Source of the DNA: a virus
Taxonomy: Duplodnaviria; Caudoviricetes
Direction: 5' to 3' (one strand)
Virus record (IMG/VR): IMGVR_UViG_2597490325_000001
Span: 32,001 to 96,000 of that record
DNA: 64,000 bases
The translations under genes were made by a program, and so were the position numbers. Positions 2,674-43,783 of the stretch are shown here, piece by piece (the stretch's first letter is position 1; each line of letters starts with the position of its first letter). The notes below the pieces were generated by a model that worked only from the letters and a program-made list of their open reading frames with translations, was not told the origin of the DNA and searched no databases.

Positions 2674-3441
2674 TTAGTTTGTTATGTCGAAACACAACAT
2701 ATCTTCTAAAACTTGATTTTTGCCGATGAAGGAAGAAAATACATACTCCCAATCACCCTCATTATGGATACCAAATATACTTATATGGCTAAGATAAAAC
2801 GTTTTCTCTACATTGATTAGAGATTTAGTAATAAAGTCATTAAATGCCATATAAAGAGTAAATTCGTTACTACTTTTTATATTAACTATATGAGTTTTCA
2901 ACTTTCTAGTTGAGTTAGGGAATATAGCTTCTAAATCGGTTGTAGAAGGTAAGAAATTAAGCATTTTATCCACAATAATAGTCTTAGTTATTCCTGCAAA
3001 AGAAGTATCGAGTTCTTTGACAACTCCTTTAATGAACTTTTCAGGATCAGACATCATTGTGCGACTATATTTCAGACCAAACTTAGTTTTGACAGCTTCA
3101 TCATTATTGATTACGTCAGGGATGAAATAATTTCCAGTTAATGGACTATTACCGAAATCTAAGGCTACTATAGAATCAGCTAAAAAGTTAAGATTTAACA
3201 ATTTCTCTTGATTTTCTAAAGTAAGATATCCAAAATCCTCTTTAAATTTAGTATTCATTAAGGAATTTAGATTAACTAAGCCATACTTCTTTCTAAGTAC
3301 ATCATATGCTAAAGCTGCACAAATTTGATAATTACCTGACATTAAAGAAGTGTAGAAATCTTTGGCATCAACTTCAGAATAGAAGAAATCATATTCTTTA
3401 TTTTTTTCTAAATACTCTCCTAGAGTCATATCAAACTCCAA
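2674..3441 (-). CDS. Hypothetical protein
   Basis: 255-aa ORF overlapping the end of the upstream gene. Confidence 0.65.
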   Translation of the reverse strand: MEFDMTLGEYLEKNKEYDFFYSEVDAKDFYTSLMSGNYQICAALAYDVLRKKYGLVNLNSLMNTKFKEDFGYLTLENQEKLLNLNFLADSIVALDFGNSPLTGNYFIPDVINNDEAVKTKFGLKYSRTMMSDPEKFIKGVVKELDTSFAGITKTIIVDKMLNFLPSTTDLEAIFPNSTRKLKTHIVNIKSSNEFTLYMAFNDFITKSLINVEKTFYLSHISIFGIHNEGDWEYVFSSFIGKNQVLEDMLCFDITN

Positions 3442-4822: not shown

Positions 4823-4916
4823 GGTATGACTTTCCTATTCGATTAGTATACTAATTTGATGTTCCATCAACATTCATTTAGTAACGTTTATATTAAATTA
4901 AAAAACGGATCAAATT

Positions 4917-5495
4917 ATGGGATTTAACCATTCAGACAATATAGTAAATTTTTTACTAAATGAAGAATCTAGTAAAAGGATTCCCGCATTGTATCATATT
5001 AGTTTCAAAGATAATTTAGAGGGTGAATGGAAGCCCCGCCCACCAGATGGATTTCAAATTAAAGCTAAAGAAAAAAATAAAGAAAAAGAAGTCAATATAA
5101 CTGAACCCAAAACTCCTAGAATATCTTGTTCAACTGACCTTAAGAAATGTTTTTATGCTATTTATCCTAATATTTCTTTCTTTTTTGAAACAAAGAAATT
5201 TCCGTATATGGATTTTACAGTCTATTCACCTAGATTGAATGGTGAAGAAAAGATTTGGACTCCAGAATATTTAACTGATAAGAAATTAGTACATGATGCA
5301 CATGTAACTAACGAATATTGTATTCTAGAGAAAGCCTTTATGCAAAAAGTAGGGCACTTAAGAGTATTTAATCCTCTTAAAAAATCAAATAACCCTCCTG
5401 AGATTTATTATCATCCATTTAATAATGAATCTTATGAAAGAAAATTTCTTGCATATAAGGTAGAAATAAAATACGATTCTATCAAGGAAAAATAA
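4917..5495 (+). CDS. Hypothetical late protein (possible head-internal protein)
   Basis: 192 aa, late promoter at 4869, N-terminal FLLNE possible protease site. Confidence 0.65.
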   Translation: MGFNHSDNIVNFLLNEESSKRIPALYHISFKDNLEGEWKPRPPDGFQIKAKEKNKEKEVNITEPKTPRISCSTDLKKCFYAIYPNISFFFETKKFPYMDFTVYSPRLNGEEKIWTPEYLTDKKLVHDAHVTNEYCILEKAFMQKVGHLRVFNPLKKSNNPPEIYYHPFNNESYERKFLAYKVEIKYDSIKEK

Positions 5496-5497
5496 TT

Positions 5498-22168: not shown

Positions 22169-24241
22169 ATGGCTAAGAAAATTCACTTTACTAAAAACTA
22201 TCCAATTCTTAAAAAATCTATTGGTACGGCTATTGATATCTTGAAGAAAGATGTTCGAGAAAGCATCCAATACGATCATTTTAATGATCGCCTTAAATTA
22301 ATGGGTATTGACAAATATCAGTTAGTGCGTACTATTTATCATGCTGCTAAAGCAGCTTATCACTCCAAGGGTGAAATCAAAGATATCATTATCGGGAATG
22401 ATATTAACACTGAAACCCTTAAAACTTTCTTAACACAAGCTTTAGCTGCTTCTTCAAATGGTATTATTGATAATATAACCATTAATTCTTTTGGTAAGCA
22501 TAAAGTATCTCTTCAGAATGAGAAACAAATTCGTAAAGAATTAGATAAGCTCAATGGTCGTAAAGATAGTTTAGAAGTTCTTGTAAAAGACTTTAAATTA
22601 GGTCTTACTGTTCCTAAAAATAGTGATAAAGCCACAGATGACAAACGTCAATTTATATTTAAATCACTAGTACAAGAAATCTTATTAGGCTCTATTGTAG
22701 TTCAAAACTATCGTCGAAATCTTAATGCGGAAAATATTTTCTATGATCCGAATGTAATGGCATTTGGTACAAGCCTCATTCGTCTCTCTGAAAAAGATTG
22801 GCGGGGAAATACCTCTGAATTTCGTTTTAGCAATTATATCCACGAATATGATGAGTTTAAAGATACTACATACCGTCTTTATGAAGAAGGTTATAATCAT
22901 ATCCGTTATGCTGACGTTAGTAAATTCTTTGATAACATTAGTCATGATTTAGTTGTTGATGCATTGTGGGTAGGATTTAATACATTTAACTATAGTGATG
23001 AAGTTTTAGAGAAAGCTAAGTTCCGTACATTTGTAAAATCATTACTGAATGTAAATGGGCGTGATTCCGGTCTTACTATTGAATCACACTTCCAGCATTT
23101 GATTGCTAAGATTATTATTGAATATATGTTTAAAGATTTCTCTACAAGAATTAAACGTAATTCATATCGTAATGTCGATGATTTTAAAATCCTATTCTAT
23201 GTAGATGACATTATCATACTGACGAAAGCGGAATGGGATGCTAACAGAGTTCTTGATGGTGTAAATGAAATTCTTGAAGAAAATGGTTTTAAACTTAATG
23301 AAGCTAAATCTTCATTTATCTCTAGTAAAGCTAAACGTAAAAAAACTGATAAAAATTCCACTACTTTCGAAGACTTAAAAACCTTAGTACGTCTTCCAGG
23401 AACCCATTATTTTGATATCGATGAATTAGAATTATCGCTTGAGTATGGCGGTGATTCTGTAGAACTTTATCGGAATTCAATGGAGCAAATTCATAAACTG
23501 TCTCATTATTTTAATGAAAAAGGTGAATTACTGGTTGAAACAGATATCGTTAGCTTCTTAAAAGATCTTGATGAAACTGGTGCGTCTGGATATCATAGTG
23601 ATCGATTCCTATCACAGATCGTTAAATGCTGCATGTATACAGCCCGTGATCAATATCTTTCATTATTGTATAAAGAAGATGCAAATATTTATATTGAGAA
23701 TCTTAAAAATAAAGGATTTGAAGAAAGAATTTTTGCTGAAAAAGAATATCCATATGTAATGAATACATATCTCCGTAATAAATTTAAACTACGAGATATC
23801 ATGTTCCTTTACAAAAATAAAGATAAATTTGTCTTTAGTGAAACTAAAGTAGAATTCTACATGAATGCCATCAAAGTAAGAAATGACGAAGAGATTCTTA
23901 ATGCTCTACAATATTTCTATCTTACCAAACTTCATGATGCTAATATGTTGGCTAATTTAGTTCAGTTGGTATTGGAGAATTATCCTAGTAAAATTAAGTT
24001 CCTTGCAGCAATCGTTAAACGCAAACTTGCTGAAATGAATGGTCTTAATTATACCACTACTAAGTTAGAATTTACTGACGTGTATAATAAATTTATGATG
24101 CAACACTTTGCGGTAAATTACCAAACTCAGCTTAAATCGTACTTGATTCAACCCCCTTCAGCTCGTACTAATGATGCTATGTTCTTCTTTACATATCGTA
24201 TGTTTAAGAATGTAGTTAACTTAGTAACGATTACTGAATAA
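22169..24241 (+). CDS. Reverse transcriptase, Abi/UG-like, with helical C-terminal domain
   Basis: RT motifs in order: VPK..KRQF, YADVSKFFDNISH, GLTIES..LIAKI, FYVDDIII and GFKLNEAKS; 690 aa; own early promoter (22123) and terminator. Confidence 0.85.
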   Translation: MAKKIHFTKNYPILKKSIGTAIDILKKDVRESIQYDHFNDRLKLMGIDKYQLVRTIYHAAKAAYHSKGEIKDIIIGNDINTETLKTFLTQALAASSNGIIDNITINSFGKHKVSLQNEKQIRKELDKLNGRKDSLEVLVKDFKLGLTVPKNSDKATDDKRQFIFKSLVQEILLGSIVVQNYRRNLNAENIFYDPNVMAFGTSLIRLSEKDWRGNTSEFRFSNYIHEYDEFKDTTYRLYEEGYNHIRYADVSKFFDNISHDLVVDALWVGFNTFNYSDEVLEKAKFRTFVKSLLNVNGRDSGLTIESHFQHLIAKIIIEYMFKDFSTRIKRNSYRNVDDFKILFYVDDIIILTKAEWDANRVLDGVNEILEENGFKLNEAKSSFISSKAKRKKTDKNSTTFEDLKTLVRLPGTHYFDIDELELSLEYGGDSVELYRNSMEQIHKLSHYFNEKGELLVETDIVSFLKDLDETGASGYHSDRFLSQIVKCCMYTARDQYLSLLYKEDANIYIENLKNKGFEERIFAEKEYPYVMNTYLRNKFKLRDIMFLYKNKDKFVFSETKVEFYMNAIKVRNDEEILNALQYFYLTKLHDANMLANLVQLVLENYPSKIKFLAAIVKRKLAEMNGLNYTTTKLEFTDVYNKFMMQHFAVNYQTQLKSYLIQPPSARTNDAMFFFTYRMFKNVVNLVTITE

Positions 24242-29633: not shown

Positions 29634-29734
29634 ATTACCTACCAATATGAGTTATGTATGTAAATTCTAAAACTATGTTTGAAAAATACTAAAATTACCA
29701 CTTTTCTAAAAATAGTAAGAATTTACATTGAAAT

Positions 29735-30016
29735 AAAATTCCCTATTACACTTTAGAAATGTAATAGGGGTTTAACTTTTGTTCTGTATTCCTTGCTAAT
29801 TATTTAATATTTCGAACGTTAGTGAGAAATATTAAATAATAATTAGGTTTATATCGAAATTAGATTTATTTACGTAGTAAATAAATTTAATGAGATATAA
29901 ACATCCTAACCCCTAAATCCCCTTTCCTTCGTGACATTTTGGAAGTTTAAGAGAATCTAGGAATTAGTTAATGTTTAATGGTAAATTTTATACTCATTAA
30001 TTATTTTTCTATTTCT
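29735..30016 (-). other. Non-coding region with two long AT-rich hairpins; candidate replication origin or ncRNA
   Basis: Inverted repeats at about 29797-29846 and 29847-29902, minus-strand late promoter at 30015-30027, terminator-like hairpin at 29741-29769. Confidence 0.4.
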
Positions 30017-30219
30017 ATCAGAATGTTAGTAAATTTAAATTTTAAATTTTTGATAAAAATTATTACATCTTTAAAAGATTTATTATTTAATACAAAATTT
30101 TTAGATAATTAAAATTTTAAAATGATAATTAAAGACATATTATTTACTTGACTTAAGATAGTTATTAATCTATAATAATATTAATAACGAATTACAACCA
30201 AAGGCGAGAAACGAAAGAT

Positions 30220-34466: not shown

Positions 34467-34982
34467 ATGTCTAGTAATAACGAGTACGATATCGTAAAAA
34501 AGATGTTTGATCACGCTATTGTTGAAGCTAATGCGTCTCCAGATACTCGACAGAAAGTAGGTGCTGTTATTGCAACTGGTGATCTAAGTAATATTATCTC
34601 TACGGGGTGGAATGGTCGCCCCGTTGTAGATAAAGATTTCAATAAATGTGTGAATCCTAAAACATCATCATCTTTCCCACAACTGATTCATGCAGAAGAA
34701 CGTGCTATTATTAAAGCAGGTTTTGATAAGTGTAATGGCGCTACTATTTTTGTAACACATTGCCCTTGTTTAAGATGTGCTGCCAGAATTATTGAATCTG
34801 GTATTAAGCGTGTTTACTTCATGAAAGAACACGATGAACTGGAAGGAGCTGAATATCTTCTAGCCAACGGCATTGAAGTTAGTCAAGTACCTTTCTTAAG
34901 ACGAACTATTTCTCCCAACGATCAATTCTTAAGCGAATTGGTTCCTGGAGAAGTAAAGAGTTTAAAAGAAACTGGTAAGTAA
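34467..34982 (+). CDS. dCMP deaminase
   Basis: KVGAVI, STGWNG, IHAEERAI and THCPCLRCA..I. Confidence 0.9.
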   Translation: MSSNNEYDIVKKMFDHAIVEANASPDTRQKVGAVIATGDLSNIISTGWNGRPVVDKDFNKCVNPKTSSSFPQLIHAEERAIIKAGFDKCNGATIFVTHCPCLRCAARIIESGIKRVYFMKEHDELEGAEYLLANGIEVSQVPFLRRTISPNDQFLSELVPGEVKSLKETGK

Positions 34983-34983
34983 T

Positions 34984-35211
34984 ATGTATAAAGTGACCGA
35001 AGTAATTAGTAACTCTGTAAATATTCATTTTAAAGCACAAGAAGATTTATTATTTAAATTTGGAAGAGGTTATGTGACAAGTCTCCAAATGGAAACTCTT
35101 TTCTTAGCTCAATCTAAATTTTATGCAAAATTGGATTTATGGAAAAGTAGTAGCTTCGATATGAGTGAGGTTATCTCTAGAGGTTCTACTATTCGAATTA
35201 CTGATAACTAG
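34984..35211 (+). CDS. Hypothetical protein
   Basis: 75-aa ORF in operon. Confidence 0.55.
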   Translation: MYKVTEVISNSVNIHFKAQEDLLFKFGRGYVTSLQMETLFLAQSKFYAKLDLWKSSSFDMSEVISRGSTIRITDN

Positions 35212-35219
35212 GTTACTTT

Positions 35220-35480
35220 ATGCTTACTTTAAGAATTCTCAAGGATGAGAAACGCCCTTTTCATTTTAATGGTACTTCATTTAAACATACTGTAGAAGTT
35301 TGGTTCAGTGAAAGTGTTAAATATATAGCTAATCCTTTAAACGGTATGATGAATTTTTCAGTCAAGTACAAATTTGTATTGGATTCTGAAAAATTTTATT
35401 CAAAGGTAAATTATTTTGCCATTCGTACTGGTTATCGTAATAAAGTATATGTATTAACTATTAGATCTACAGGCTTCTAA
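35220..35480 (+). CDS. Hypothetical protein
   Basis: 86-aa ORF in operon. Confidence 0.55.
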   Translation: MLTLRILKDEKRPFHFNGTSFKHTVEVWFSESVKYIANPLNGMMNFSVKYKFVLDSEKFYSKVNYFAIRTGYRNKVYVLTIRSTGF

Positions 35481-35489
35481 CAGAAAGTT

Positions 35490-35582
35490 AGAAATGAAAG
35501 ACTAAAGCTTCCATTCCTGACTCATTTAGTAATTTCTTAGCCTTTTTATAGGGATAATAACTTTTCATTATCCCTTCTTTTC
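35490..35582 (+). ncRNA. Putative sRNA or tRNA-operon leader (similar to 39149-39270)
   Basis: Starts at late promoter 35479; 5' hairpin with a C/U-rich loop, then a GGGATAA..TTATCCC hairpin. Confidence 0.4.
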
Positions 35583-35617
35583 ATAAAGTACTTACGAGTA
35601 TATTATGAAAAGAATTT

Positions 35618-35651
35618 CGGTGCATAGCTCAGTAGGATAGTAGCAACTGCA
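35618..35651 (+). pseudogene. Truncated 5' half of a tRNA (Arg-like)
   Basis: CGGTGCA-TAGCTCAGTAGGATAGTAGC-AACTGC gives an acceptor 5' strand and D arm, with no anticodon loop or T arm. Confidence 0.55.
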
Positions 35652-35658
35652 TCAAATT

Positions 35659-35735
35659 CGGGGTGTAGCATAATAGGATAATGCACCGACCTTCTAAGTC
35701 GGCTTACGTGGGTTCGACTCCCTCCGTCCCGACCA
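35659..35735 (+). tRNA. tRNA-Arg(TCT)
   Basis: Cloverleaf; anticodon arm CCGAC-CTTCTAA-GTCGG, GGTTCGACTCC, encoded CCA. Confidence 0.92.
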
Positions 35736-35746
35736 AATTAATTTAT

Positions 35747-35828
35747 GCGAATGTGGCGAAATTGGTAGACGCCCCAGATTTAGGTTCTGGTATCGAAAGG
35801 TGTGTGGGTTCGACTCCCTCCATTCGCA
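35747..35828 (+). tRNA. tRNA-Leu(TAG)
   Basis: Acceptor GCGAATG/CATTCGC, CCAGA-TTTAGGT-TCTGG, long variable arm; CCA not encoded. Confidence 0.92.
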
Positions 35829-35837
35829 ATCTATTCT

Positions 35838-35925
35838 GTCTGCTTGTCCAAATTGGTAAAGGAAGGAGACTTAAAATCTCCCGGCTGTAACAGCCTTATG
35901 GGTTCGACTCCCTTAGCAGATACCA
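35838..35925 (+). tRNA. tRNA-Leu(TAA)
   Basis: Acceptor GTCTGCT/AGCAGAT, GGAGA-CTTAAAA-TCTCC, long variable arm, CCA. Confidence 0.92.
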
Positions 35926-35942
35926 CTTATAGGAATTTCTGA

Positions 35943-36035
35943 GTGAAACAAGAAATCCCAATTGATTTAAAATCATATGAAAAAATGATTAGAGACCTAG
36001 TGAATTCTGCATTAAGTAGAACTTATCAAGGTTAA
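35943..36035 (+). CDS. Possible 30-aa microprotein between tRNAs
   Basis: AGGAA RBS, GTG start, MKQEIPIDLKSYEKMIRDLVNSALSRTYQG; fills the spacer. Confidence 0.35.
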   Translation: MKQEIPIDLKSYEKMIRDLVNSALSRTYQG

Positions 36036-36042
36036 GTATTAT

Positions 36043-36120
36043 GGGCCATTAGCATAGTGCTCTAATGCAGCCAGCTCATAACTGGAAGATCACCGGTTGG
36101 AATCGCGGTATGGCCCACCA
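36043..36120 (+). tRNA. tRNA with CAT anticodon (Ile2 or Met); atypical D and T loops
   Basis: Acceptor GGGCCAT/ATGGCCC + ACCA, CCAG-CTCATAA-CTGG; T loop TTGGAAT. Confidence 0.8.
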
Positions 36121-36222
36121 TTAAATAAAATTTCCCATATCCTTCGAAAGAGGGATATGGGAGTTTATTTCTTTTTTATTCATATATAATTATAATAGAA
36201 TATAACTTTATAGGAAAATATA

Positions 36223-36750
36223 ATGAAAGACAAGATGCAAAAAATTTTAGATAATATTAAAAAAGATGAAAATGGCTGTTGGATATGGCAAAGGTCTTTA
36301 ACTGGTTCAGGATATGGTCAAATATTTGCTGAAGGTAGAAATCATTCAGTACATAAATATGTATTTGAATTAATTAATGGTAAAGTTCCAAATAAATACG
36401 TAGTTCGTCATAAATGCCATAATCGTAAATGCTGTAATCCAGATCATCTACTATCTGGAACAAATAAAGATAACTATCATGATTCTATTGAAGTATTTAA
36501 AAAAATTCATAAAAGTAAAAGACTTAAATGGATTATAAACGATGTTTCTTATCCTAATTCAAGAATTTCGTCTAAGATAACTAAACTTTCTCAGAGTATA
36601 ATTTGTAAGCATATGGATAAAGAAACTAGAATATTTGATTATGATAGTTATGCTAAAGCGTGTAAAATAGCCAATGTTGAACCTAAGAAGTTACCAACTC
36701 TTAAGACTCTCACTAAAGAGCAGAAGAAACTCATTGAGGATAATATGTAA
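36223..36750 (+). CDS. Free-standing HNH endonuclease
   Basis: CWIW..GYG..VRHKCHNRKCCNPDHL..GTNKDN. Confidence 0.88.
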   Translation: MKDKMQKILDNIKKDENGCWIWQRSLTGSGYGQIFAEGRNHSVHKYVFELINGKVPNKYVVRHKCHNRKCCNPDHLLSGTNKDNYHDSIEVFKKIHKSKRLKWIINDVSYPNSRISSKITKLSQSIICKHMDKETRIFDYDSYAKACKIANVEPKKLPTLKTLTKEQKKLIEDNM

Positions 36751-37037
36751 TGCTTAGAATCCATAGAAATGCTGCAATTTTCAGCATTTCAGAAATTGAT
36801 GAGTGTATGCTTTTTCTAGGTTTTATAAAGACCTTAAAACATGTAAAAGATTATACTAAGATAGATGATGAAGATGATTATAGAAAATCATTTTATATTA
36901 TTGGCCCTAATCCTGAAATGAAAGGTATGAATAGAGTTCAGGTAATAGAGCATAGTAACCCATTAAGGAAATCTCATACTTTCTTTTATTCCATAGAGAA
37001 AAAATATAATGCTAAAAGTATCTGGCTCAAGAAATAA
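36750..37037 (+). CDS. Hypothetical protein
   Basis: 95-aa coupled ORF. Confidence 0.6.
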   Translation: MLRIHRNAAIFSISEIDECMLFLGFIKTLKHVKDYTKIDDEDDYRKSFYIIGPNPEMKGMNRVQVIEHSNPLRKSHTFFYSIEKKYNAKSIWLKK

Positions 37038-37218
37038 ACTTATTACTTATTCCAGATATCATGAGTTTATTGCATATTTTGAGGATAACTTAGGTATTGA
37101 AAACTTAACTATAAAACGTATAATTTATCGTACCAAAAGGACTTATAATAATATAGAAACAATAAATTTCTGGTTTGCTGAAAATGTATTATGGAATAGT
37201 AAACTATGTTTATTATAG
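37009..37218 (+). CDS. Hypothetical protein
   Basis: 69-aa overlapping ORF. Confidence 0.5.
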   Translation: MLKVSGSRNKLITYSRYHEFIAYFEDNLGIENLTIKRIIYRTKRTYNNIETINFWFAENVLWNSKLCLL

Positions 37219-37445
37219 GTTATGTAGTACCTAATAAAATTAATCACCATAGAACTTCTTTAGTTACTCATTCATTATTTAATGTAATGGGAGTAGATGA
37301 TGATTATGATATAGAAAATGATTACTTTTTAGAGATATTTATCGATTTAGAAAATGTACCTATTGATGATTCAAATAAAGTAGTAACTATACAGCATCAT
37401 GTAGGTCTATGTGAAAATAAATGGTTAGTATTTACTCCTTATTAA
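37206..37445 (+). CDS. Hypothetical protein
   Basis: 79-aa overlapping ORF. Confidence 0.5.
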   Translation: MFIIGYVVPNKINHHRTSLVTHSLFNVMGVDDDYDIENDYFLEIFIDLENVPIDDSNKVVTIQHHVGLCENKWLVFTPY

Positions 37446-37530
37446 AGTACGAATAAGCAACAGTTTAGTAGTTAGTTGAGAAACACTAACTACAATAGAA
37501 ACTAGTACTCAGAAATAAGGAAGACATAAA

Positions 37531-37965
37531 ATGTCTATTACAGTAAAAATTATGAATGACACTCACCCTAGACGTGGTGACGATAATATTTCATCAAGAT
37601 TTAAGCTTGTGCATATTCCTGATGGTGGTTCTTTTCAGATTAACCGCCCTCAAGCAAGAGACCTTAATGAAGATCTTTCAATAGATTCCCCATTAGTTGG
37701 TAGACCGGATTTAGGATATTGTACGTTATCTGTATTTGGTAGTGATGGTTCCGATTTAGGTGCATTACATGTCATTAATGGTAATATGTATGTAATGGAT
37801 AATGGTAAAACCATCTCTACATTTTGGGGATGTTCTTATCCTATTGACGACCCTAAGCTATCAGACCTCGAACCAATGGAAGTTAAAGAAGATAAAGTTC
37901 TAGATAAAAATAAATCTTTCATTACTCCTCTAGAGCATCAAGAGATTTTAAGATCTCGATTATAA
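37531..37965 (+). CDS. Hypothetical late protein
   Basis: 144 aa, TAAGGA RBS, late promoter at 37459. Confidence 0.72.
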   Translation: MSITVKIMNDTHPRRGDDNISSRFKLVHIPDGGSFQINRPQARDLNEDLSIDSPLVGRPDLGYCTLSVFGSDGSDLGALHVINGNMYVMDNGKTISTFWGCSYPIDDPKLSDLEPMEVKEDKVLDKNKSFITPLEHQEILRSRL

Positions 37966-38143
37966 GTATTAATATTTTAAATATTAAAAATAACCCATAT
38001 CCTTCCAAAGAGGGATATGGGAGTTTTATTACAAAATGTAGCGGCGGTATAAATAAGCATATATTATTACCATGAAGTAGCATAGGAAGCTGACATAATG
38101 ATTATTAATATCATTTAAACCGTACGGTAATGGGGTATATAAT

Positions 38144-38431
38144 ATGATCGCTGAAAATATATCTTTACTTGTGAACGATATGTATGCTGAATTAGTTAAC
38201 CATTTAGATGATAATTTATCTGGTAAGCCTAGCTACATAACCGAGTATAATTTAGAAGATTTGACTATAGAACAGCTGAATGACTTATCTGAATCATTAG
38301 TTGATAAACTGACTAATGAGCTAATAGAGAATCCTTTAGCTGCAAGAGTTGAAATATCTATCTCTATCACTAACAAATCTGAAATTTCAGTAGAGGAAAA
38401 TCTGATAGAACATGACAATCTACCAGAATAG
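38144..38431 (+). CDS. Hypothetical acidic early protein
   Basis: 95 aa, early promoter at 38059. Confidence 0.65.
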   Translation: MIAENISLLVNDMYAELVNHLDDNLSGKPSYITEYNLEDLTIEQLNDLSESLVDKLTNELIENPLAARVEISISITNKSEISVEENLIEHDNLPE

Positions 38432-38482
38432 TAACTAATAAAGCCTACTTAGGTAGGCTTTATTTTTATATAAGGAATACAA

Positions 38483-38689
38483 TTGTATATTCACACTTAT
38501 AACAAAGAACTTCCAGATAGCTCTAATGAAAATATAAGATCGATTCTTATGGTCTATGCTTCATCTGCATATGCTGTTAATTCAGCTGTATCACTTGATA
38601 TAGTTCAGTGGTTTGTAAAATTACATGAAATAAAAGAATCGCAAATTCTAATAAGGGTACACAGTGAATATTTTAAGGTGGAGGGGTAG
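38483..38689 (+). CDS. Hypothetical protein
   Basis: 68 aa, TAAGGA RBS with TTG start. Confidence 0.55.
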   Translation: MYIHTYNKELPDSSNENIRSILMVYASSAYAVNSAVSLDIVQWFVKLHEIKESQILIRVHSEYFKVEG

Positions 38690-38873
38690 GCAACCTATTC
38701 AAGAAGTACAAGACACTCTTTCAGAAATTAATCAGAGAGAAATTTCACAATTGGTTCATGATATAGTTGTTGATCGTCTTCCAATGAGTAGTATAGCATA
38801 TGAAGAAAAGATGGTATTCAATGGTAGAACTAGCTATCCTTATATAAGATTATTATGGATTAGAAAATGTTAA
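38664..38873 (+). CDS. Hypothetical protein
   Basis: 69 aa, GTG start, overlapping. Confidence 0.5.
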   Translation: MNILRWRGRQPIQEVQDTLSEINQREISQLVHDIVVDRLPMSSIAYEEKMVFNGRTSYPYIRLLWIRKC

Positions 38874-39133
38874 CTTTATTACGTATTAATAAATCTAGAG
38901 AGCATCGCTTAGAAATATTAGTAGAGTCTAAACGATTTTCTGCTTTAGCTGAAGCTGAGGTTCTATTATTACCTTTTTCTCGTAGATTTGAAACAGAATA
39001 TTTGTATTTCCATACTAGCTTTAAAAAATCTGAGAAACCTATAAGTCTTCGTTGCTCGCCAGAATTTGTAAATTTTTGTAACAAAAATACAGGATTCTAT
39101 GATTCTTCTTTAGAAGAACAAATTGTTTTCTAG
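38867..39133 (+). CDS. Hypothetical protein
   Basis: 88-aa overlapping ORF. Confidence 0.55.
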   Translation: MLTLLRINKSREHRLEILVESKRFSALAEAEVLLLPFSRRFETEYLYFHTSFKKSEKPISLRCSPEFVNFCNKNTGFYDSSLEEQIVF

Positions 39134-39148
39134 AGCTAACAAAAAAGT

Positions 39149-39270
39149 AGAAATGAAACCTCCGGCTGTGAGCGCATCCCGATTCGGTTACTTTCTAGCT
39201 TCTTTCATATCCTTCTTATTGTTATGGTCTCTAGGAAGTGGGATAAATGGATTTTATCCCACTCCTATTT
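39149..39270 (+). ncRNA. Putative sRNA
   Basis: Starts at late promoter 39138; 5' hairpin, pyrimidine-rich linker, terminal hairpin AGTGGGATAAA/TTTATCCCACT. Confidence 0.45.
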
Positions 39271-39272
39271 AG

Positions 39273-39388
39273 TATTTTTATTGTAGGGCAGGTACTTACT
39301 TTTAATCTACAGGAAAATCCTGGGGTTATCCACAGAGAGTATGCAACGTATTGGGCTATACATTGAAACTTGCCCTACAATAAAAATA
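39273..39388 (+). ncRNA. Putative structured RNA closed by a ~20-bp stem
   Basis: TATTTTTATTGTAGGGCAG pairs with TTGCCCTACAATAAAAATA. Confidence 0.5.
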
Positions 39389-39410
39389 TTTTATAACAAA
39401 AGAATTAGAA

Positions 39411-39520
39411 GAGTATTTAATGATACTGTATTAGGTTTTCCCTCTTCCTTTAAACCTAATTAAGCCTGGGTTGGTTAGCCGAAAGCAATAGTAACTAATA
39501 CAGTATCGATTAAGTATTTT
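39411..39520 (+). ncRNA. Putative structured RNA closed by a long stem
   Basis: GATACTGTATTAG pairs with CTAATACAGTATC; internal hairpin with CCCTCTTCCTT loop; followed by a T-tract. Confidence 0.5.
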
Positions 39521-39535
39521 TTTTTTAAGAATTTA

Positions 39536-39613
39536 GACTCGCTAGCTCAGTTGGTTAGTAGCGGATGACTGTTAATCATCAGGTCGCAGGTTCAAGCCCT
39601 GCGCGAGTCGCCA
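39536..39613 (+). tRNA. tRNA-Asn(GTT)
   Basis: Acceptor GACTCGC/GCGAGTC, GATGA-CTGTTAA-TCATC, GGTTCAAGCC, CCA. Confidence 0.93.
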
Positions 39614-39623
39614 TATTTATTAT

Positions 39624-39698
39624 TGTCCCTTAAATTAGTGGCTAGACAAATCCATTGTAAAATGGGCGGCACCAGTTCGATCCTGGTAGGGACAACCA
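39624..39698 (+). tRNA. tRNA-like RNA with non-canonical anticodon loop and degenerate D arm
   Basis: Perfect acceptor TGTCCCT/AGGGACA + ACCA and T arm ACCAG-TTCGATC-CTGGT; anticodon loop is 6 or 8 nt (TTGTAAAA). Confidence 0.6.
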
Positions 39699-39699
39699 A

Positions 39700-40048
39700 A
39701 TTAGTCTTATTCCATTAAGACTTACAGACTTAGCTACCAGCTTGGTATCTGAGAGCCTTCTCCCAAGGTTTACCCATAGTTCTATTCGAATAAGGTGAAG
39801 AATAGTTCCGATATAATCACTTCTTAGGAAATGATTAGTGTCTCAGCAAACCGTATGAGACTGAAAGGGTTGAAATAAACGGTTCCTCTAAATTAATAAG
39901 ATTGAATATATCGATCTTAGTGCCAAAGTCGCCAGATACATACGGCATAAATAAAGAGGAGTAGACTAATCAACTACCCTTCTTTATATAAAAATTTCCT
40001 TGTTGAAATGGTAAGGAAGGTAGTTATGCCTGATTCGAAAGAATCTAA
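39700..40048 (+). ncRNA. Putative large structured RNA
   Basis: Pairings GTATCTG/CAGATAC, GTCTCA/TGAGAC, AACCGT/ACGGTT, TAAGATTGA/TCGATCTTA and GGCATAA/TTATGCC; no ORF of 60 aa or more. Confidence 0.45.
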
Positions 40049-40320
40049 ATAACAAAAAAATAGAAGTCCTCGCTTCTAGATGACGGATCAATTTTTTGTT
40101 GTATAAGTCATTAAATTTGAGGTTTTGAGAAAAACTGAGGTTTTTGTCATTAGGCTCTTTACATTTTTGCCCTCACAATTTGTAATTACTTTGCCACTGC
40201 ATATCTTCTTTATGAAGAAAAAATCTACTGTCAGAAGTAGAAACATGAATTCCTTTCAGGCTGAAAGGTGGATGCCCTTATTTAGATAACTCTAGATAAG
40301 GGCATTAACAACCCACGATT

Positions 40321-40561
40321 ACGGGGATGTAGTGTTTATTTTTCTAGGTAGTGAAAGCGTGCACCAGTAACTACCATGTTTACCTCCCACTAAAATGGTG
40401 AAGAGTTAGATCAACTCTTTACTAGGCTACATAGGTATGTAGGGTATTGGAGGTTAAACATTCTATAAATACCAAATGTTAAATTGGTGGAATGCCTATC
40501 CGAGATAACTATCAGATAGAATAGTTAAAAGGGCGTTAGAAAAATTTCACTGCATCCCCGT
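40321..40561 (+). ncRNA. Putative ~240-nt multibranched RNA
   Basis: Closing stem ACGGGGATGTAGTG/CACTGCATCCCCGT with nested ATGTTTACCTCC/GGAGGTTAAACAT and several hairpins. Confidence 0.55.
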
Positions 40562-40585
40562 TCCCTAATTTATTAAGGAACGAAA

Positions 40586-40741
40586 ATGTCTGCTAGTAAA
40601 GAACTTGAAATTGATATCGATAGCGTAGTGTTTAATGAAGATGAGCTTCAAGAGTCCGTTAAACATAACGAAGAGAAAATTGATTCTCAAGAAGTAGTTG
40701 AAGCTTCCGATGAATGTGATGGCGGCGGCTGTAAGATTTAA
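40586..40741 (+). CDS. 51-aa acidic microprotein ending in an NrdA-like CxxxxCKI tail
   Basis: TAAGGA RBS; MSASKELEID...EASDECDGGGCKI; terminator directly after; below the ORF-track cutoff. Confidence 0.7.
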   Translation: MSASKELEIDIDSVVFNEDELQESVKHNEEKIDSQEVVEASDECDGGGCKI

Positions 40742-40909
40742 AAACTTCCCATATCCTCTATTAAGGGGATATGGGGTTTTCTTTCCTTCTTAAAAACGTA
40801 TTTGGTAAACCTTTAAGAATATATTATTTTAGTGATATTGGGTGTTAAAACTCAATGTTAAACAAAAACAAACACTAATTCTAATAAGCAATAAAAGGAA
40901 TACCACAAG

Positions 40910-41338
40910 ATGTCCGACAAACATGTAGTTTATTCTAAAATTGAAAACTTTTTCTCTAAAGTGGCTAACCGTGACTTTGAACCAGTGCTCAGTTCATTGT
41001 TCGGCGGTTTACGTAAACAAGTTCGGTGGGATGTAGTATTTGAAGAAATTCGTTCAATGGATGTGAACGCAATTCCACTTGACAAGTTTAAAGTGATGAG
41101 CAAGGGCGATGTCATTTCTATCTCTGATAATGGAGACACAATCTTTGTTGAAGATATGTTTAATGGTAAGTATACTCTTAAACGTAAACAAGGTATCATT
41201 GAAATGACTGTTGACGGCGAACATTTCACTTTTAAAGATAATAACGATGAAGCTGAATCTGCCAGCTTTGTTGCACCCGTTGATTTCCCTCCGGTGCCAA
41301 ACGGATTTATCGCTAATATCCGTAACCTATTAGCGTAA
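40910..41338 (+). CDS. Hypothetical early protein
   Basis: 142 aa, early promoter at 40819, AAGGA RBS. Confidence 0.75.
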   Translation: MSDKHVVYSKIENFFSKVANRDFEPVLSSLFGGLRKQVRWDVVFEEIRSMDVNAIPLDKFKVMSKGDVISISDNGDTIFVEDMFNGKYTLKRKQGIIEMTVDGEHFTFKDNNDEAESASFVAPVDFPPVPNGFIANIRNLLA

Positions 41339-41392
41339 CGTCATCCTCTTGTGCCCCCGAAAGGGGGTATAACTTTTATTGGAAAAACAAAA

Positions 41393-41722
41393 ATGAATCA
41401 ATACAGCGAATCTTACAAAAGTTCCATTATGGGTTACTTTAAAGATCGTTATTTAGTGCTAATTACTGAGCGCTTTAAAGATCTACCGCAGCTTACTTTT
41501 ATGAAGTTAAAAGTTAAATCTGTAGCAGTAATTAATAACTCTGAATGGGATGATGATTTACTTAAAGCTAATATCCGTTGCTTCTTCTCTCAAGAAATCA
41601 AAGATCATTCAAAATATGAAGATTGGATGACAAGACTTGATGAAGTATTTGAAGAATCCTGCCAGTATGCTAAAGATCAAACATTCATTAAAGCTATGGG
41701 TTCTTTGAGTTTGATTAACTAA
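41393..41722 (+). CDS. Hypothetical protein
   Basis: Likely starts at the ATG at 41393 after a hairpin (track start 41351 lies within the hairpin). Confidence 0.65.
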   Translation: MNQYSESYKSSIMGYFKDRYLVLITERFKDLPQLTFMKLKVKSVAVINNSEWDDDLLKANIRCFFSQEIKDHSKYEDWMTRLDEVFEESCQYAKDQTFIKAMGSLSLIN

Positions 41723-41736
41723 AAAAGGATTGTATA

Positions 41737-42111
41737 ATGACTACTATGTACAGAGCAGCCAATAATTTTAGAAGAAAAGTTACACGTTTCTATTCTAGAA
41801 TTGTTAGAAAAGAATTTGAAAAAGAAGTATCAATGCTAATAACTGATAAAGAATCAATAAATACTTTCTTTACCAGTTTAGAAAAATATGATTTTAATCC
41901 TAGACATCTAATTATGACTTGTTTCCCTGTTGGTAAATTAGAAGAAGGAAAAAAATTATTAAATAGTATTCAGAATAGAGGTATTGAGTTTGCTTTAAAT
42001 GAAATATCTTTAGAAGAAAAAAGACTTATTTTAACTGCTATGAATACACCTGATTTTTCTGAAATAATGAATAACCTTTCTGACTCTCTCCTACCAGAAA
42101 AAGTTATTTAA
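41737..42111 (+). CDS. Hypothetical protein
   Basis: 124 aa, AAGGA RBS. Confidence 0.68.
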   Translation: MTTMYRAANNFRRKVTRFYSRIVRKEFEKEVSMLITDKESINTFFTSLEKYDFNPRHLIMTCFPVGKLEEGKKLLNSIQNRGIEFALNEISLEEKRLILTAMNTPDFSEIMNNLSDSLLPEKVI

Positions 42112-42247
42112 TATTTTAATTTTAAAAAAAGACCTTATAAGGTCTTTTTTTTTTTCATGATGTACATTACTATTTAGAATTTATCTATTTTTTAAACAAA
42201 GAATTAGTGTCTTGCATGAAAAATAGATAAATTTTATAGGAGTTTTC

Positions 42248-43783
42248 ATGGCAACTATAATTCAAAGAAAAAGAATTCTGATTAAAGATTTTTATTCAGA
42301 TGATGAAATGAAGAAGTTTTTTAGATACATGTCTATGGATAAAACTAACATGTATGGGGCTGTTGAAAAGTCATGGATAGCTGGCTACGAAACAGAATTT
42401 GAAGGTGAGCATTATATTGCTGTACCTAGGCGTATAGATACTAAACTTTTAGAAGACTTAATAGATGCTGATGCTGGAGTAGATAAGCGTTTAATTCCAC
42501 CTATTCCTGTAAGAAAAAATGTCTTTAGCTGTTTTGCTGAGCCTAGAGATATTACTCAGCAAGTTATTTTAGATTTTATGATGGGTAGAAATAGTTATGA
42601 AAGTATAACTACTAAACAGCATAGAAAAGCATTATTTGCTCAAACTGGTAGTGGTAAAACATACTTAACTATCAAATTTTGTGCTGAAAATAATCTATTA
42701 CCTTTCATTAACTGTCCAGATAAGAAAGCAATTCTTACTTGGCAGCAAGAGTTCGGTAAGTTTACTGATATTAAACCTGAAGAAATATGTGTTATTATGG
42801 GTAAAGATTCAGTAATACGACTTATTAAAAAATTTGAGAAAAAACAATATAAAGTTATTCTCTGCTCATCTAAGACTATGACATCTCTTATTCTTTCTAA
42901 AGACTTTGCTCTTATAGAAGAATTATTTACGCATTTAGGCATTGGTCTGTTAGTACATGATGAAAGTCACTTGAATTTAATGGTTCTCTTTTACTTAGAA
43001 ATGATTTGTAATACTAGACATACTTTATTCTTAACTGCTACTCCTAGTAGACGTATGTATAAAGAAGATAGACTACTCAAATCGTTAATGCCTCCTGAAA
43101 AAGCGATATATGTAGAAGAAGCTGAACAGCGCTTTACTTATGTAAGGGGTTGTTATTTCTCTAATATGGATAAGAAAGCCTATGCAGGTATAGCCCTTCC
43201 AGCTGGTACTAATTTATCTAGATATTTTGATCAAGTATTGAATAAGAAAGAAAACTATGAGTTCTTTAGGGATGAAATTTTTGCACCAGTAGTGAATTAT
43301 GCATTGAGAAAAAGATCCAAAACTGATAAAGATGATTTTACTAAATTAGCTTTTTTATGTAACAGTAAAAAAGAGAATGAGTTCTTTTACAATATGTTGA
43401 AAGATCTTTACAAAGACAAATATTCTATCGGTATTTTTAATAGTGATATTGAGAATATGGATGAGCGATTTAAAGAAACTGAAAAAGAAATCATTATCAG
43501 CACTGATAAATCTTTTGCTGGTATTATAAACATACCTGGATTAGAGATAATCATAAACCTTTATCCATATAGTTCAGATTCCCATATTAAACAAGTAATG
43601 GGCCGTATTCGTAAAGAAAAAGGTAAAAAGAGTATATTTATTCAGATGGTAGATGCTTCTTTAAAACGATTCAAATCTGTTGAGTCTAGAGAAAGGTCAG
43701 CAGTAGCGGATATTTGCGCTAAAGTATTTATGAAAGAATTGAATACTCAGATATCTGTATTTAATAGTATAGAAGAAGACTAA
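42248..43783 (+). CDS. SF2 DExH helicase (UvsW-like)
   Basis: AQTGSGKT, HDESH, TATP and QVMGRIR. Confidence 0.88.
   Translation: MATIIQRKRILIKDFYSDDEMKKFFRYMSMDKTNMYGAVEKSWIAGYETEFEGEHYIAVPRRIDTKLLEDLIDADAGVDKRLIPPIPVRKNVFSCFAEPRDITQQVILDFMMGRNSYESITTKQHRKALFAQTGSGKTYLTIKFCAENNLLPFINCPDKKAILTWQQEFGKFTDIKPEEICVIMGKDSVIRLIKKFEKKQYKVILCSSKTMTSLILSKDFALIEELFTHLGIGLLVHDESHLNLMVLFYLEMICNTRHTLFLTATPSRRMYKEDRLLKSLMPPEKAIYVEEAEQRFTYVRGCYFSNMDKKAYAGIALPAGTNLSRYFDQVLNKKENYEFFRDEIFAPVVNYALRKRSKTDKDDFTKLAFLCNSKKENEFFYNMLKDLYKDKYSIGIFNSDIENMDERFKETEKEIIISTDKSFAGIINIPGLEIIINLYPYSSDSHIKQVMGRIRKEKGKKSIFIQMVDASLKRFKSVESRERSAVADICAKVFMKELNTQISVFNSIEED

What the first reader, a model, noticed from the sequence alone, without database searches (positions are those of the whole stretch)
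39138..40561. ~1.4-kb island of tandem uncharacterised structured RNAs around tRNA-Asn
Seen: an otherwise gene-dense genome has about 1.45 kb with no ORF of 60 aa or more. It contains two late promoter motifs (39138, 40051) and a chain of discrete folded modules: 39149-39270, 39273-39388, 39411-39520, tRNA-Asn, a tRNA-like RNA, 39700-40048 and 40321-40561. Several are closed by 13-20-bp stems. Known: large ncRNAs such as GOLLD and ROOL occur beside phage tRNA genes; I cannot match either by eye. Inference: a polycistronic ncRNA operon processed at the tRNAs and long stems into several new RNA species.
Basis: partly seen in the sequence, partly recalled or inferred. Interest (0 to 1): 0.82.

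Follow-up and report, generated by a model that had tools for sequence, protein, structure and literature searches.

The report
Orphan structured-RNA island beside phage tRNA-Asn
A giant AR9-like phage carries a 1.4-1.8 kb protein-free stretch around a tRNA-Asn gene that has its own strong late-type promoters and folds into unusually stable RNA modules matching no known RNA family, but it is found only in this phage lineage, so its function remains unproven.

Summary
Window 39134-40909 is the longest stretch without an ORF of 60 aa or more in the 262-kb phage genome: 1,776 bp, against 615 bp for the next longest. It is also the genome's densest patch of stable local RNA folds.

It contains tRNA-Asn and a tRNA-like minihelix that lacks a normal anticodon loop. 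It also holds two exact and one imperfect copy of a 16-nt motif that fits the AR9 late-promoter consensus. Elsewhere that motif sits in front of the tail-sheath gene and a DNA-binding-protein gene. Three modules are closed by long stems: 39266-39395, 39407-39524 and 40321-40561.

Nothing but tRNA matches Rfam 15, and GOLLD and ROOL do not match. No small ORF looks clearly coding, and no frame hits Pfam or PHROGs.

The island lies inside a 7.3-kb insertion that related phages lack. I found no homologue in the relatives I could reach, so covariation could not be tested. A roughly 95% identical variant in public runs keeps most modules, tolerates 1-nt indels, and replaces the tRNA-like element.

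Best reading, at about 50%: several late-transcribed, lineage-specific non-coding RNAs alongside a tRNA unit. This is a new member of the known but poorly understood kind "tRNA-adjacent stable RNAs of large phages".

The parts
39137..39152 (+). Late-promoter-type motif P1 (AACA at 39138-39141, predicted start A at 39149).
   Evidence: Exact 16-mer. It fits the AR9 late consensus AACA-N6-TA/G (PMC5312081, passages read). A 19-nt stretch is identical to the copy in front of the DNA-binding-protein gene.
39149..39283 (+). Module 1: a short unit running from P1 to a terminator-like hairpin (39237-39263) and a U-rich tail. It contains a 39-aa ORF (39153-39272) that scores as non-coding.
   Evidence: Terminator scan. 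Fold z is only -2.1. Coding score is -0.06, below 97% of real 40-codon chunks. No homologue was found for the 49-aa frame.
39266..39395 (+). Module 2: a long hairpin RNA with arms at 39266-39293 and 39368-39395 and a 74-nt interior.
   Evidence: Inverted repeat I1. An 18-nt perfect arm match. Fold z is -7.3. It is part of the genome's top RNALfold hit, z -9.10.
39394..39411 (+). Imperfect third copy of the promoter motif (P2, with a 1-nt longer spacer).
   Evidence: Read directly from the sequence. The RNALfold element 39407-39524 starts at its predicted start site.
39407..39524 (+). Module 3: a hairpin-shaped RNA with a 13-bp perfect core stem (39422-39434 / 39495-39507) that extends to about 24 bp. 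It ends in a run of nine U.
   Evidence: z is -5.9 on the + strand and -4.0 on the - strand.
39536..39613 (+). tRNA-Asn (GTT) with an encoded CCA.
   Evidence: ARAGORN. Rfam RF00005 at 58.5 bits.
39624..39699 (+). tRNA-like minihelix: a 7-bp acceptor stem, a canonical T arm and an ACCA 3' end, but no D stem and no 7-nt anticodon loop.
   Evidence: RF00005 at 27.1 bits against a cut-off of 29. ARAGORN does not call it. In the variant strain this element is replaced by 374 other letters (joint 39617->39728).
39700..40048 (+). Module 4: a chain of hairpins downstream of the tRNA-like element. Its overall closure is uncertain.
   Evidence: z is -4.05 and -3.5. The variant keeps 39728-39894 with 5 differences in 167 nt, and replaces 39895-39921 with 88 letters.
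40050..40065 (+). Late-promoter-type motif P3 (predicted start A at 40062).
   Evidence: Exact 16-mer.
40062..40320 (+). Module 5: a hairpin chain that starts at +1 of P3 and ends in a 15-16-bp hairpin at 40272-40305.
   Evidence: z is -4.4 on + and -2.6 on -. Inverted repeat I3. The variant has a 1-nt deletion at 40092 and +AAA at 40217, both in unpaired homopolymer runs.
40321..40561 (+). Module 6: a 241-nt multi-branched RNA closed by a 14-bp stem (40321-40334 / 40548-40561). It contains no ORF of 30 aa or more on the + strand.
   Evidence: z is -7.5 and -7.47. The closing stem has P(paired) 0.93 when folded in wider context. The variant carries two separate 1-nt deletions, at 40437 and 40527. 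A covariance model built from it finds nothing in the relatives.
40586..40741 (+). A real 51-aa acidic protein gene immediately downstream. It may be the coding part of the P3 transcription unit.
   Evidence: Coding score 1.25. Three homologues at 79-94% identity.
40747..40776 (+). Intrinsic-terminator-like hairpin that closes the P3 unit. An early-promoter-type motif follows at 40818-40834.

Best explanation
The island is a lineage-specific accessory RNA locus of an AR9/PBS1-like jumbo phage. It sits inside a 7.3-kb insertion (34982-42248) between the non-virion RNA polymerase beta' gene cluster and the helicase gene.

Three promoters of the phage's late (non-virion RNA polymerase) type are predicted, with starts near 39149, 39407 and 40062. 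They would drive short + strand transcripts that do not code for protein:
- a roughly 125-nt RNA ending at a terminator (module 1);
- a roughly 118-nt hairpin-shaped RNA (module 3), whose read-through would feed tRNA-Asn, the tRNA-like minihelix and hairpin chain 4;
- a roughly 500-nt structured RNA (modules 5 and 6) that runs on into a 51-aa protein gene and a terminator.

What is shown: the absence of coding signal, the exceptional fold stability with a + strand bias, the promoter-type motifs, the presence of the island in RNA-library contigs, and its retention at about 95-97% identity in a variant strain.

What is inferred: late timing; excision of the tRNA and tRNA-like elements by RNase P/Z; cutting of the 20-bp-class stems by RNase III; and any trans-acting role for the released RNAs.
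For: Non-coding:
- It is the largest ORF-free gap in the genome.
- ORF 39153-39272 scores -0.06 and ORF 40125-40289 scores -0.20, both like spurious ORFs. The neighbouring 51-aa gene scores 1.25.
- Of the 30 stop-to-stop frames of 25 aa or more, 24 were scanned. None hit Pfam, and PHROGs gave only three chance-level hits with E of 0.0086 or higher.
- The variant strain carries 1-nt indels at 39960, 40092, 40437 and 40527.

Structure:
- Island coverage by structures with z of -5 or lower is 69%, against 13% genome-wide, and it contains the top hit in the genome.
- The + strand folds better than the - strand for 4 of 5 modules.

Promoters:
- The motif fits AACA-N6-TA/G.
- The loose motif falls in non-ORF space in 53 of 152 + strand cases, although that space is only 16% of the genome. 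G follows the start site in 58% of those 53.
- The other two extended copies precede a DNA-binding-protein gene and the tail-sheath gene.
- No early-type motif lies inside the island. The flanking ones are at 38058 and 40818.

RNA:
- Five RNA-seq runs from two studies hold all sampled words of the island.
- In run X2 a contig identical to the window spans 36000-40945 at depth 186.6, while adjacent contigs reach 2,971-8,966. A spread that wide indicates RNA rather than carried-over DNA.

Constraint (my divisions of the counts, table 8):
- The variant differs by 3.1% over 39728-40593 and 4.9% over 39062-39490.
- Flanking accessory genes differ by 7.1% (36656-37808) and 7.4% (40655-41415).

Rfam can detect known RNAs in this genome: it finds a group I intron-like match elsewhere. 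That gives its silence on the island some weight.
Against: - No homologue of any module was found. I checked the syntenic place in 6 relatives, the whole records of 5 relatives by BLAST, and 5 records plus 19 loci with a covariance model of module 6. There is therefore no covariation evidence at all.
- The read-laying table displayed only 40 of its 319 substitution rows, and none of those lay inside the island. Compensatory changes could not be counted.
- The variant strain replaces the tRNA-like element and part of module 4, so at least those parts are dispensable.
- Contig depth over the island is no higher than over neighbouring genes, and contigs cannot show transcript ends or strand.
- The raw-read run X23 held no read from this phage.
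- Stable folds are not unique to the island: 40 distinct loci in the genome reach z of -6.5 or lower.
- Two ORFs, 39247-39366 and 39341-39463, have intermediate coding scores of 0.28 and 0.30.
- Of the five indels visible in the variant, two (39960, 40437) fall at predicted paired positions.
Confidence: 0.5

Rival explanations
1. Regulatory reading. Most of the island is transcription punctuation plus one long structured leader. Modules 1-3 would be terminators or insulators that close the upstream early operon, sitting between stacked late promoters. Modules 5-6 (40062-40585) would be a roughly 520-nt 5' UTR that controls the 51-aa gene, not free-standing RNAs.
For: - A terminator-like hairpin at 39237-39263 follows the 88-aa ORF.
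- Modules 2 and 3 are long hairpins followed by U runs.
- No promoter-type motif lies between 40051 and the 51-aa gene, and the next terminator is at 40747-40776.
- The 51-aa gene is real and conserved.
- A 17-nt segment of module 6 is 82% complementary to the gene's start region (I4).
Against: - The I4 complementarity is at chance level by my estimate: about 7 such pairs are expected in 1.5 kb.
- Folding in context leaves the SD and AUG neither clearly sequestered nor clearly free, with P(unpaired) of 0.26-0.57.
- No riboswitch, leader or T-box family matches.
- Terminators do not need 70-nt interiors, and this reading does not explain 1.4 kb of sequence.
Confidence: 0.2
2. Non-functional mosaic DNA. 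The island would be a recombination-prone accessory region filled with decaying tRNA genes, promoter copies and hairpins that persist by hitch-hiking and have no RNA function of their own.
For: - It lies in a 7.3-kb insertion that 6 related loci lack.
- An HNH endonuclease gene and tRNA or pseudo-tRNA genes are close by.
- The variant strain swaps whole segments, and homology with it starts abruptly at 39062.
- No homologues were found.
- Published work reads the pseudo-tRNAs of related staphylococcal jumbo phages as degenerating genes (bioRxiv 10.1101/2020.12.14.422802, passage read).
Against: - Decay does not generate 18-21-bp perfect stems or the strongest fold signal in the genome.
- The island is less diverged in the variant than flanking accessory genes are.
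- No pseudogene trace was found in any frame.
- Half of the genome's extended strong-promoter copies sit here (2 of 4), plus a fifth, imperfect copy.
Confidence: 0.15
3. A set of short protein-coding genes (39-54 aa, several hydrophobic), some translated from near-leaderless late transcripts.
For: - ORF 39153-39272 begins 4 nt after the predicted start site and encodes a hydrophobic 39-mer.
- ORF 39247-39366 has an AGGAAG motif 8 nt upstream of its start and a coding score of 0.28.
- The +AAA insertion at 40217 in the variant is in frame with ORF 40125-40289.
Against: - Coding scores of -0.06 and -0.20 match spurious ORFs.
- The 49-aa query found no protein sharing enough words with it in the 5.8-billion-protein collection.
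- No family hits.
- Module 6 has no + strand ORF of 30 aa or more and tolerates two separate 1-nt deletions.
- Hydrophobic peptides arise by chance in T-rich sequence.
Confidence: 0.08
4. A DNA-level element, such as a replication origin or packaging site, whose inverted repeats act as cruciforms.
For: It is the largest non-coding stretch in the genome and has long inverted repeats.
Against: - There is no turn in cumulative GC skew and no switch of gene strand here.
- Folds are better on the + strand because of G-U pairs, which DNA cruciforms cannot use.
- The region holds promoters and tRNA genes.
- No direct repeats or iterons were found.
Confidence: 0.05

Closest known systems
[quoted passage not shown]
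   Same: These are small stable RNAs of unknown role, encoded among the tRNA genes of a large virulent phage (PMC3014915, one passage read). From my own recall, the T4 tRNA region also holds a homing endonuclease gene, as the wider 7.3-kb insertion does here.
   Different: The modules here have their own promoter-type motifs. Module 6 (241 nt) is larger than those RNAs (size recalled, not checked).
tRNA-Asn + pseudo-tRNA + conserved hairpin-chain RNA of staphylococcal jumbo phages (MarsHill, PALS_2, Madawaska, LY01, SA1, AH12, Machias)
   Same: - The phage group is the same: the helicase and beta' proteins match at 25-29%.
- The layout is the same: a tRNA-Asn, followed 5-10 nt later by a tRNA-like element with a non-canonical anticodon arm, followed by a hairpin chain.
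- The pseudo-tRNAs are in print (PMC10638138, passages read; bioRxiv 10.1101/2020.12.14.422802, passages read).
   Different: - A covariance model of the staphylococcal hairpin chain gives only 19.6 bits (rough E 0.03) at 40399-40530, against 17.2 bits of noise in 308 kb of other loci, and finds nothing in the own-genome search.
- A model of their tRNA-like element hits the window's three canonical tRNAs but not this tRNA-like element.
- The conserved loop motifs of the staphylococcal RNA are absent here.
- The genomic position differs.
GOLLD (RF02032) and ROOL (RF03087), large ornate RNAs of phages and prophages
   Same: They are large structured non-coding RNAs near phage tRNA genes, with no known biochemical job (PMC12286853 and PMC5737381, search listing and abstracts only).
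   Different: No match. cmscan of 38800-40900 at E up to 10 lists neither family. The best GOLLD hit in the genome is 8.4 bits, lies outside the island, and compares with a cut-off of 150. ROOL gave no hit. The modules here are 110-350 nt, not the 400-600 nt of those RNAs.
The two tRNA-adjacent lncRNAs of staphylococcal phage K
   Same: They are abundant non-coding transcripts placed beside phage tRNA genes, with unknown function (PMC9241854, passages read).
   Different: Phage K belongs to a different phage family. Those sequences were not compared here. Abundance has not been shown for this island.

Membership tests
tRNA (Rfam RF00005), applied to 39536-39613 | Cloverleaf scoring over the curated cut-off, with a 7-nt anticodon loop | tested here: met
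   58.5 bits against a cut-off of 29. ARAGORN calls tRNA-Asn with anticodon GTT.
tRNA (Rfam RF00005), applied to the tRNA-like element 39624-39699 | Score over the cut-off, a D stem, and a 7-nt anticodon loop | tested here: not met
   27.1 bits against a cut-off of 29, with mismatches marked in the D and anticodon stems. ARAGORN does not call it. The acceptor stem, T arm and ACCA end are present (read).
GOLLD RNA (RF02032) | Match to the covariance model over 150 bits | tested here: not met
   The best hit in the genome is 8.4 bits at genome 65455-65503, outside the island. It is not listed for 38800-40900 at E up to 10.
ROOL RNA (RF03087) | Match to the covariance model over 99.1 bits | tested here: not met
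   No hit at E up to 10 in the genome. The control genomes also gave no hit, so this call alone is weak. cmscan of the island likewise lists none.
Hairpin-chain RNA of staphylococcal jumbo phages (my model R1, built from 7 phages) | Four hairpins with conserved loops directly after the tRNA-like element | tested here: inconclusive
   The best window hit is 19.6 bits (rough E 0.03), inside module 6 and not after the tRNA-like element. Noise reaches 17.2 bits in 308 kb of other loci. The own-genome search gave no hit. The conserved loop words are absent.
Pseudo-tRNA of staphylococcal jumbo phages (my model R2) | Specific match of the tRNA-like element to a model of theirs | tested here: not met
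   R2 hits the window's tRNA-Leu, tRNA-Arg and tRNA-Leu (25-33 bits). It does not hit 39624-39699 at E up to 10.
AR9-type late (non-virion RNA polymerase) promoter | AACA-N6-T followed by A or G at the start site, upstream of late genes | tested here: met
   Sequence level only. Both sites fit the consensus. Sister copies precede the tail-sheath gene and a DNA-binding-protein gene. The loose motif is enriched 2.2-fold in non-ORF space. Promoter activity and timing cannot be tested with these tools.
T4 RNAC/RNAD-type stable RNAs | Stable small RNAs processed out of tRNA-region transcripts | not testable with these tools
   No Rfam model matched, and no T4 sequence was compared. The available RNA data are contigs without ends.

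The most novel reading that the evidence does not exclude
Modules 2, 3 and 6 are free-standing, highly expressed late RNAs of a new class. They would be excised from their transcripts at 14-24-bp closing stems and at the tRNA and tRNA-like elements. Together with the anticodon-less tRNA mimic, they would act in trans as decoys or scaffolds, for example for host RNases, tRNA-targeting defences or translation factors, during infection by a nucleus-forming, uracil-DNA-type jumbo phage.
Probability: 0.15. Interest if true: 0.7.

Novelty: new member of a known kind. Interest (0 to 1): 0.42.

Why it matters
Large phages repeatedly turn out to carry structured RNAs of unknown function next to their tRNA genes: T4 RNAC/RNAD, the phage K lncRNAs, GOLLD and ROOL. 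None of these has an established function.

This locus adds a compact case with explicit, testable transcription signals. Half of the genome's four best copies of a strong late-promoter motif appear to be spent on non-coding RNA. It also includes a 241-nt multi-branched RNA.

The phage is evidently present and transcribed in public RNA-seq runs, so transcript mapping should be straightforward. If the RNAs prove discrete and abundant, they would be good material for asking what tRNA-island RNAs do.

As it stands the island is lineage-restricted and has no comparative support, so its value is that of a well-described candidate, not a discovery.

Tried and rejected
Searches for homologues, all of which came up empty:
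- GenBank phages by blastn: only the tRNA-Asn part matched, 97 records. A second query covering the tRNA pair gave only tRNA hits.
- IMG/VR by protein anchors: the 142-aa protein, the helicase alone and the 51-aa family found nothing.
- A helicase alignment found 15 loci. Six of them show beta', the 171-aa gene and the helicase adjacent, with no island, no tRNA and no DNA similarity.
- Exact DNA words from the tRNA-like element, tRNA-Asn and module 4 found nothing in IMG/VR or in JGI metagenomes. The 142-aa protein found nothing in metagenomes.
- The GTDB genome scan with the 51-aa family gave one spurious 24-residue hit.
- Whole-record searches of relatives by BLAST and with a single-sequence model of module 6 found nothing.

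Other work that led nowhere:
- The raw-read RNA run X23 held no read of the phage, so it provides no test.
- The fixed-window fold scan at 120 nt with a 60-nt step cuts through the modules and did not single out the island. I replaced it with RNALfold. One search timed out.
- A search for antisense targets of the island elsewhere in the genome found nothing longer than 15 nt.
- The indels visible in the variant are too few to test the structure: 3 of 5 lie in unpaired runs and 2 of 5 at helix ends.
- The notebook of earlier scan findings held nothing for this genome or for look-alike stretches.
Full report
**Context.** The window is bases 32001-96000 of a 262,391-bp virus record that CheckV rates as complete. 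Its beta' subunit matches PHROG 3015 at E 8e-115. The beta' subunit and the SF2 helicase find Bacillus phages AR9, PBS1 and BpSp, and the staphylococcal jumbo phages, at 25-34% identity. The AR9 counterpart of the beta' subunit is annotated as the non-virion RNA polymerase subunit. The phage is therefore a distant member of the AR9/PBS1-like jumbo phages. Its GC content is 32.5%.

- No ORF of 60 aa or more lies between 39133 and 40910.
- This 1,776-bp gap is the largest in the genome. The next are 615 and 549 bp, and ORFs of 60 aa or more cover 92.8% of the genome.
- Module fold z-scores against dinucleotide shuffles are -7.3 (39273-39388), -5.0 (39411-39520), -4.05 (39700-40048), -4.8 (40049-40320) and -7.5 (40321-40561). 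The module at 39149-39270 reaches only -2.1.
- The long closing stems are present.
- In a genome-wide RNALfold z scan of the + strand, 69% of the island lies in structures with z of -5 or lower, against 13% overall. Only 0.03% of equally long windows reach that coverage, and the top hit of the genome (z -9.10) is 39213-39405.
- Taken one at a time the modules are not unique: 40 separate loci reach z of -6.5 or lower, several of them inside genes.
- The + strand folds better than the - strand for modules 3, 4, 5 and 6 but not for module 2. This fits RNA made from the same strand as the tRNAs and neighbouring genes.

**Promoters and terminators.**
- The 16-mer TAACAAAAAARTAGAA occurs four times in the whole genome with up to one mismatch, always on the + strand. 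The reversed control gives zero.
- Two of the four copies lie in the island, at 39137 and 40050. A fifth, imperfect copy with one extra spacer base lies at 39394-39411.
- The motif fits the late-promoter consensus AACA-N6-TA/G that was determined experimentally for AR9, where the final A or G is the start site (PMC5312081, passages read).
- The other two copies sit upstream of a DNA-binding-protein gene (phrog_379) and the tail-sheath gene (phrog_19666).
- The loose consensus is 2.2-fold enriched outside ORFs, and in 58% of those cases a G follows the start site.
- AR9-like early-promoter motifs flank the island at 38058 and 40818, but none lies inside it.
- Terminator-like hairpins lie at 39237-39263 and 40747-40776.
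- Module 3, as delimited by RNALfold (39407-39524), begins at the predicted start site of the imperfect motif and ends in nine U.
- The island therefore looks like three small late transcription units, not one operon.

**Known RNAs.**
- Rfam 15 finds tRNA-Asn at 58.5 bits and, below the cut-off, a tRNA-like element at 39624-39695 (27.1 bits against 29). That element has a perfect acceptor stem, a T arm and an ACCA end, but no D stem and no 7-nt anticodon loop. No other match in 38800-40900 comes near its family's gathering score.
- GOLLD (RF02032) and ROOL (RF03087) do not match.
- Rfam does detect a group I intron-like element elsewhere in this genome and a fifth tRNA at 36043-36116. The method therefore works on this genome.

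**Coding?**
- A dicodon score was trained on the phage's own long ORFs. It gives -0.06 for the hydrophobic 39-aa ORF right after the first promoter and -0.20 for the 54-aa ORF. Both look like spurious ORFs.
- Two 39-40-aa ORFs overlapping module 2 score 0.28 and 0.30, which is ambiguous.
- The neighbouring 51-aa gene scores 1.25.
- The 49-aa frame found no protein sharing enough words with it in the 5.8-billion-protein collection.
- Of the 30 stop-to-stop frames of 25 aa or more, 24 were scanned. Four 25-27-aa frames and two frames outside the island were left out. None hit Pfam, and PHROGs gave only three chance-level hits.

**Relatives.**
- In six related IMG/VR loci (helicase identity 35-47%) the gene order is beta', a 171-aa gene, then the helicase, with about 200 bp between the last two.
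- Here 7.3 kb is inserted between them: four tRNA-family genes, an HNH endonuclease gene, small ORFs and the island.
- None of those loci holds a tRNA or any DNA similarity to the island. The whole records of five relatives hold no similarity either.
- A covariance model of module 6 finds nothing in two complete relatives, one partial relative, MarsHill, AR9 or 19 other loci.
- Several word and protein scans of IMG/VR, JGI metagenomes and GTDB genomes were empty.

**Public runs.**
- Twenty runs from nine studies hold at least part of the island, and five RNA-seq runs from two studies hold all of it.
- In RNA run X2 a contig identical to the window spans 36000-40945 at mean depth 186.6. Contigs over the next genes (40914-41849) reach 2,971-8,966, and the helicase contig is at 251. 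This 16-48-fold spread points to RNA rather than carried-over DNA. Contig depth is flat, however, and says nothing about the island's own level, ends or strand.
- Runs X6 and X13 hold a variant phage. Its homology with this phage begins at 39062. It keeps modules 1-3 and tRNA-Asn. It replaces 39618-39727, the tRNA-like element, with 374 other letters, and 39895-39921 with 88 letters. It keeps the rest.
- The variant has 1-nt deletions at 39960, 40092, 40437 and 40527, and +AAA at 40217.
- Dividing the counts in table 8, the island differs by 3.1-6.1% against 7.1-7.4% for two flanking accessory gene blocks and about 2% for the helicase. This suggests constraint, but phage mosaicism could produce the same pattern.
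- Only 40 of the 319 substitution rows were displayed and none lay inside the island, so compensatory changes could not be counted.
- Three of the five visible indels fall in unpaired homopolymer runs and two fall at helix ends.

**Comparison with staphylococcal jumbo phages.**
They carry tRNA-Asn, a pseudo-tRNA 5 nt later, and then a hairpin chain with invariant loops and visibly compensating stems.
- The layout resembles tRNA-Asn plus the tRNA-like element plus module 4 here.
- Homology is not supported. The hairpin-chain model scores 19.6 bits inside module 6, against 17.2 bits of noise, and finds nothing in the own-genome search. The pseudo-tRNA model hits the window's ordinary tRNAs but not this tRNA-like element.
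- The resemblance is one of arrangement only.

**Other readings.**
- There is no turn in GC skew and no strand switch at the island, and no iterons. This argues against an origin of replication.
- Modules 5-6 may be a long leader of the conserved 51-aa gene. Folding shows no clear sequestration of its ribosome-binding site, and the one complementary segment is at chance level.

**Verdict.** This is a real, non-coding, strongly folded locus that carries promoter-type motifs. It is most likely a set of late, lineage-specific non-coding RNAs around a tRNA unit. It resembles T4 RNAC/RNAD (PMC3014915, passage read) and the phage K lncRNAs (PMC9241854, passages read) in kind, but it is a member of no described family. 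It has no covariation support, and its function is unknown.

Noticed in passing
window 36043-36116 (+): A fifth tRNA-family gene with anticodon CAU and an irregular T arm scores 34.9 bits (cut-off 29) in a local Rfam scan. ARAGORN and the window-wide gathering scan both missed it. It ends in ACCA. A terminator hairpin follows it at about 36131-36165 that closely resembles the one at 40747-40776.
   Followed up: partly
L046:55-413 (genome 124454-124812, outside the window): The genome's second-largest ORF-free gap holds a group I intron-like match: RF00028 at 44.1 bits against a cut-off of 50, E 1.3e-9.
   Followed up: no
window 34982-42248: A 7.3-kb insertion relative to six related phage loci, where the 171-aa gene and the helicase are adjacent. 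It carries tRNA-Arg, two tRNA-Leu, the tRNA(CAU), an HNH endonuclease gene (36223-36750), small ORFs, the RNA island and three genes of 123-142 aa.
   Followed up: partly
window 40914-41849: The 142-aa and 123-aa genes just downstream of the island have contig depths of 2,971-8,966 in RNA run X2, against 186-251 for their neighbours. They are among the most highly expressed genes in that run. They have no PHROG match, and the only Pfam hit is a sub-threshold Tail_tube match for the 142-aa protein.
   Followed up: no
window 22883-23326 (genome 54883-55326): A reverse transcriptase domain (RVT_1, 44.8 bits) lies in a 694-aa open frame 16 kb upstream of the island. The staphylococcal relatives also encode an RT. 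No link to the island was seen.
   Followed up: no
window 1168, 19057, 20446, 22122, 31408, 38058, 40818, 43807, 58274 (+): A motif (G/A)ATATATTAT-N6-G recurs and resembles the AR9 early-promoter consensus. At the stringency used, the count (12 against 7.4 expected) is not significant on its own.
   Followed up: partly
window 40738-40830 vs L007:17791-17882 and L006:10733-10832: The only DNA similarity between this region and related phages is a terminator plus early-promoter segment, at about 70% identity over 95-106 nt.
   Followed up: no
window 29671-30219: The third-largest ORF-free gap (549 bp) contains a stable local fold, 29689-29943 at z -7.05. It has no Rfam match at E up to 0.5 (L045).
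   Followed up: partly
Rfam accession in earlier notes: Several earlier notes of this scan cite GOLLD as RF01998. In the Rfam copy used here RF01998 is group-II-D1D4-1, and GOLLD is RF02032.
   Followed up: yes
L034:1561-1685 and its counterparts in 6 other staphylococcal jumbo phages: The hairpin chain after their pseudo-tRNA has invariant loops, and two of the loops are complementary to each other (…UAUGCC… and …GGCAUA…). The stems change in a compensating way between phages.
   Followed up: partly
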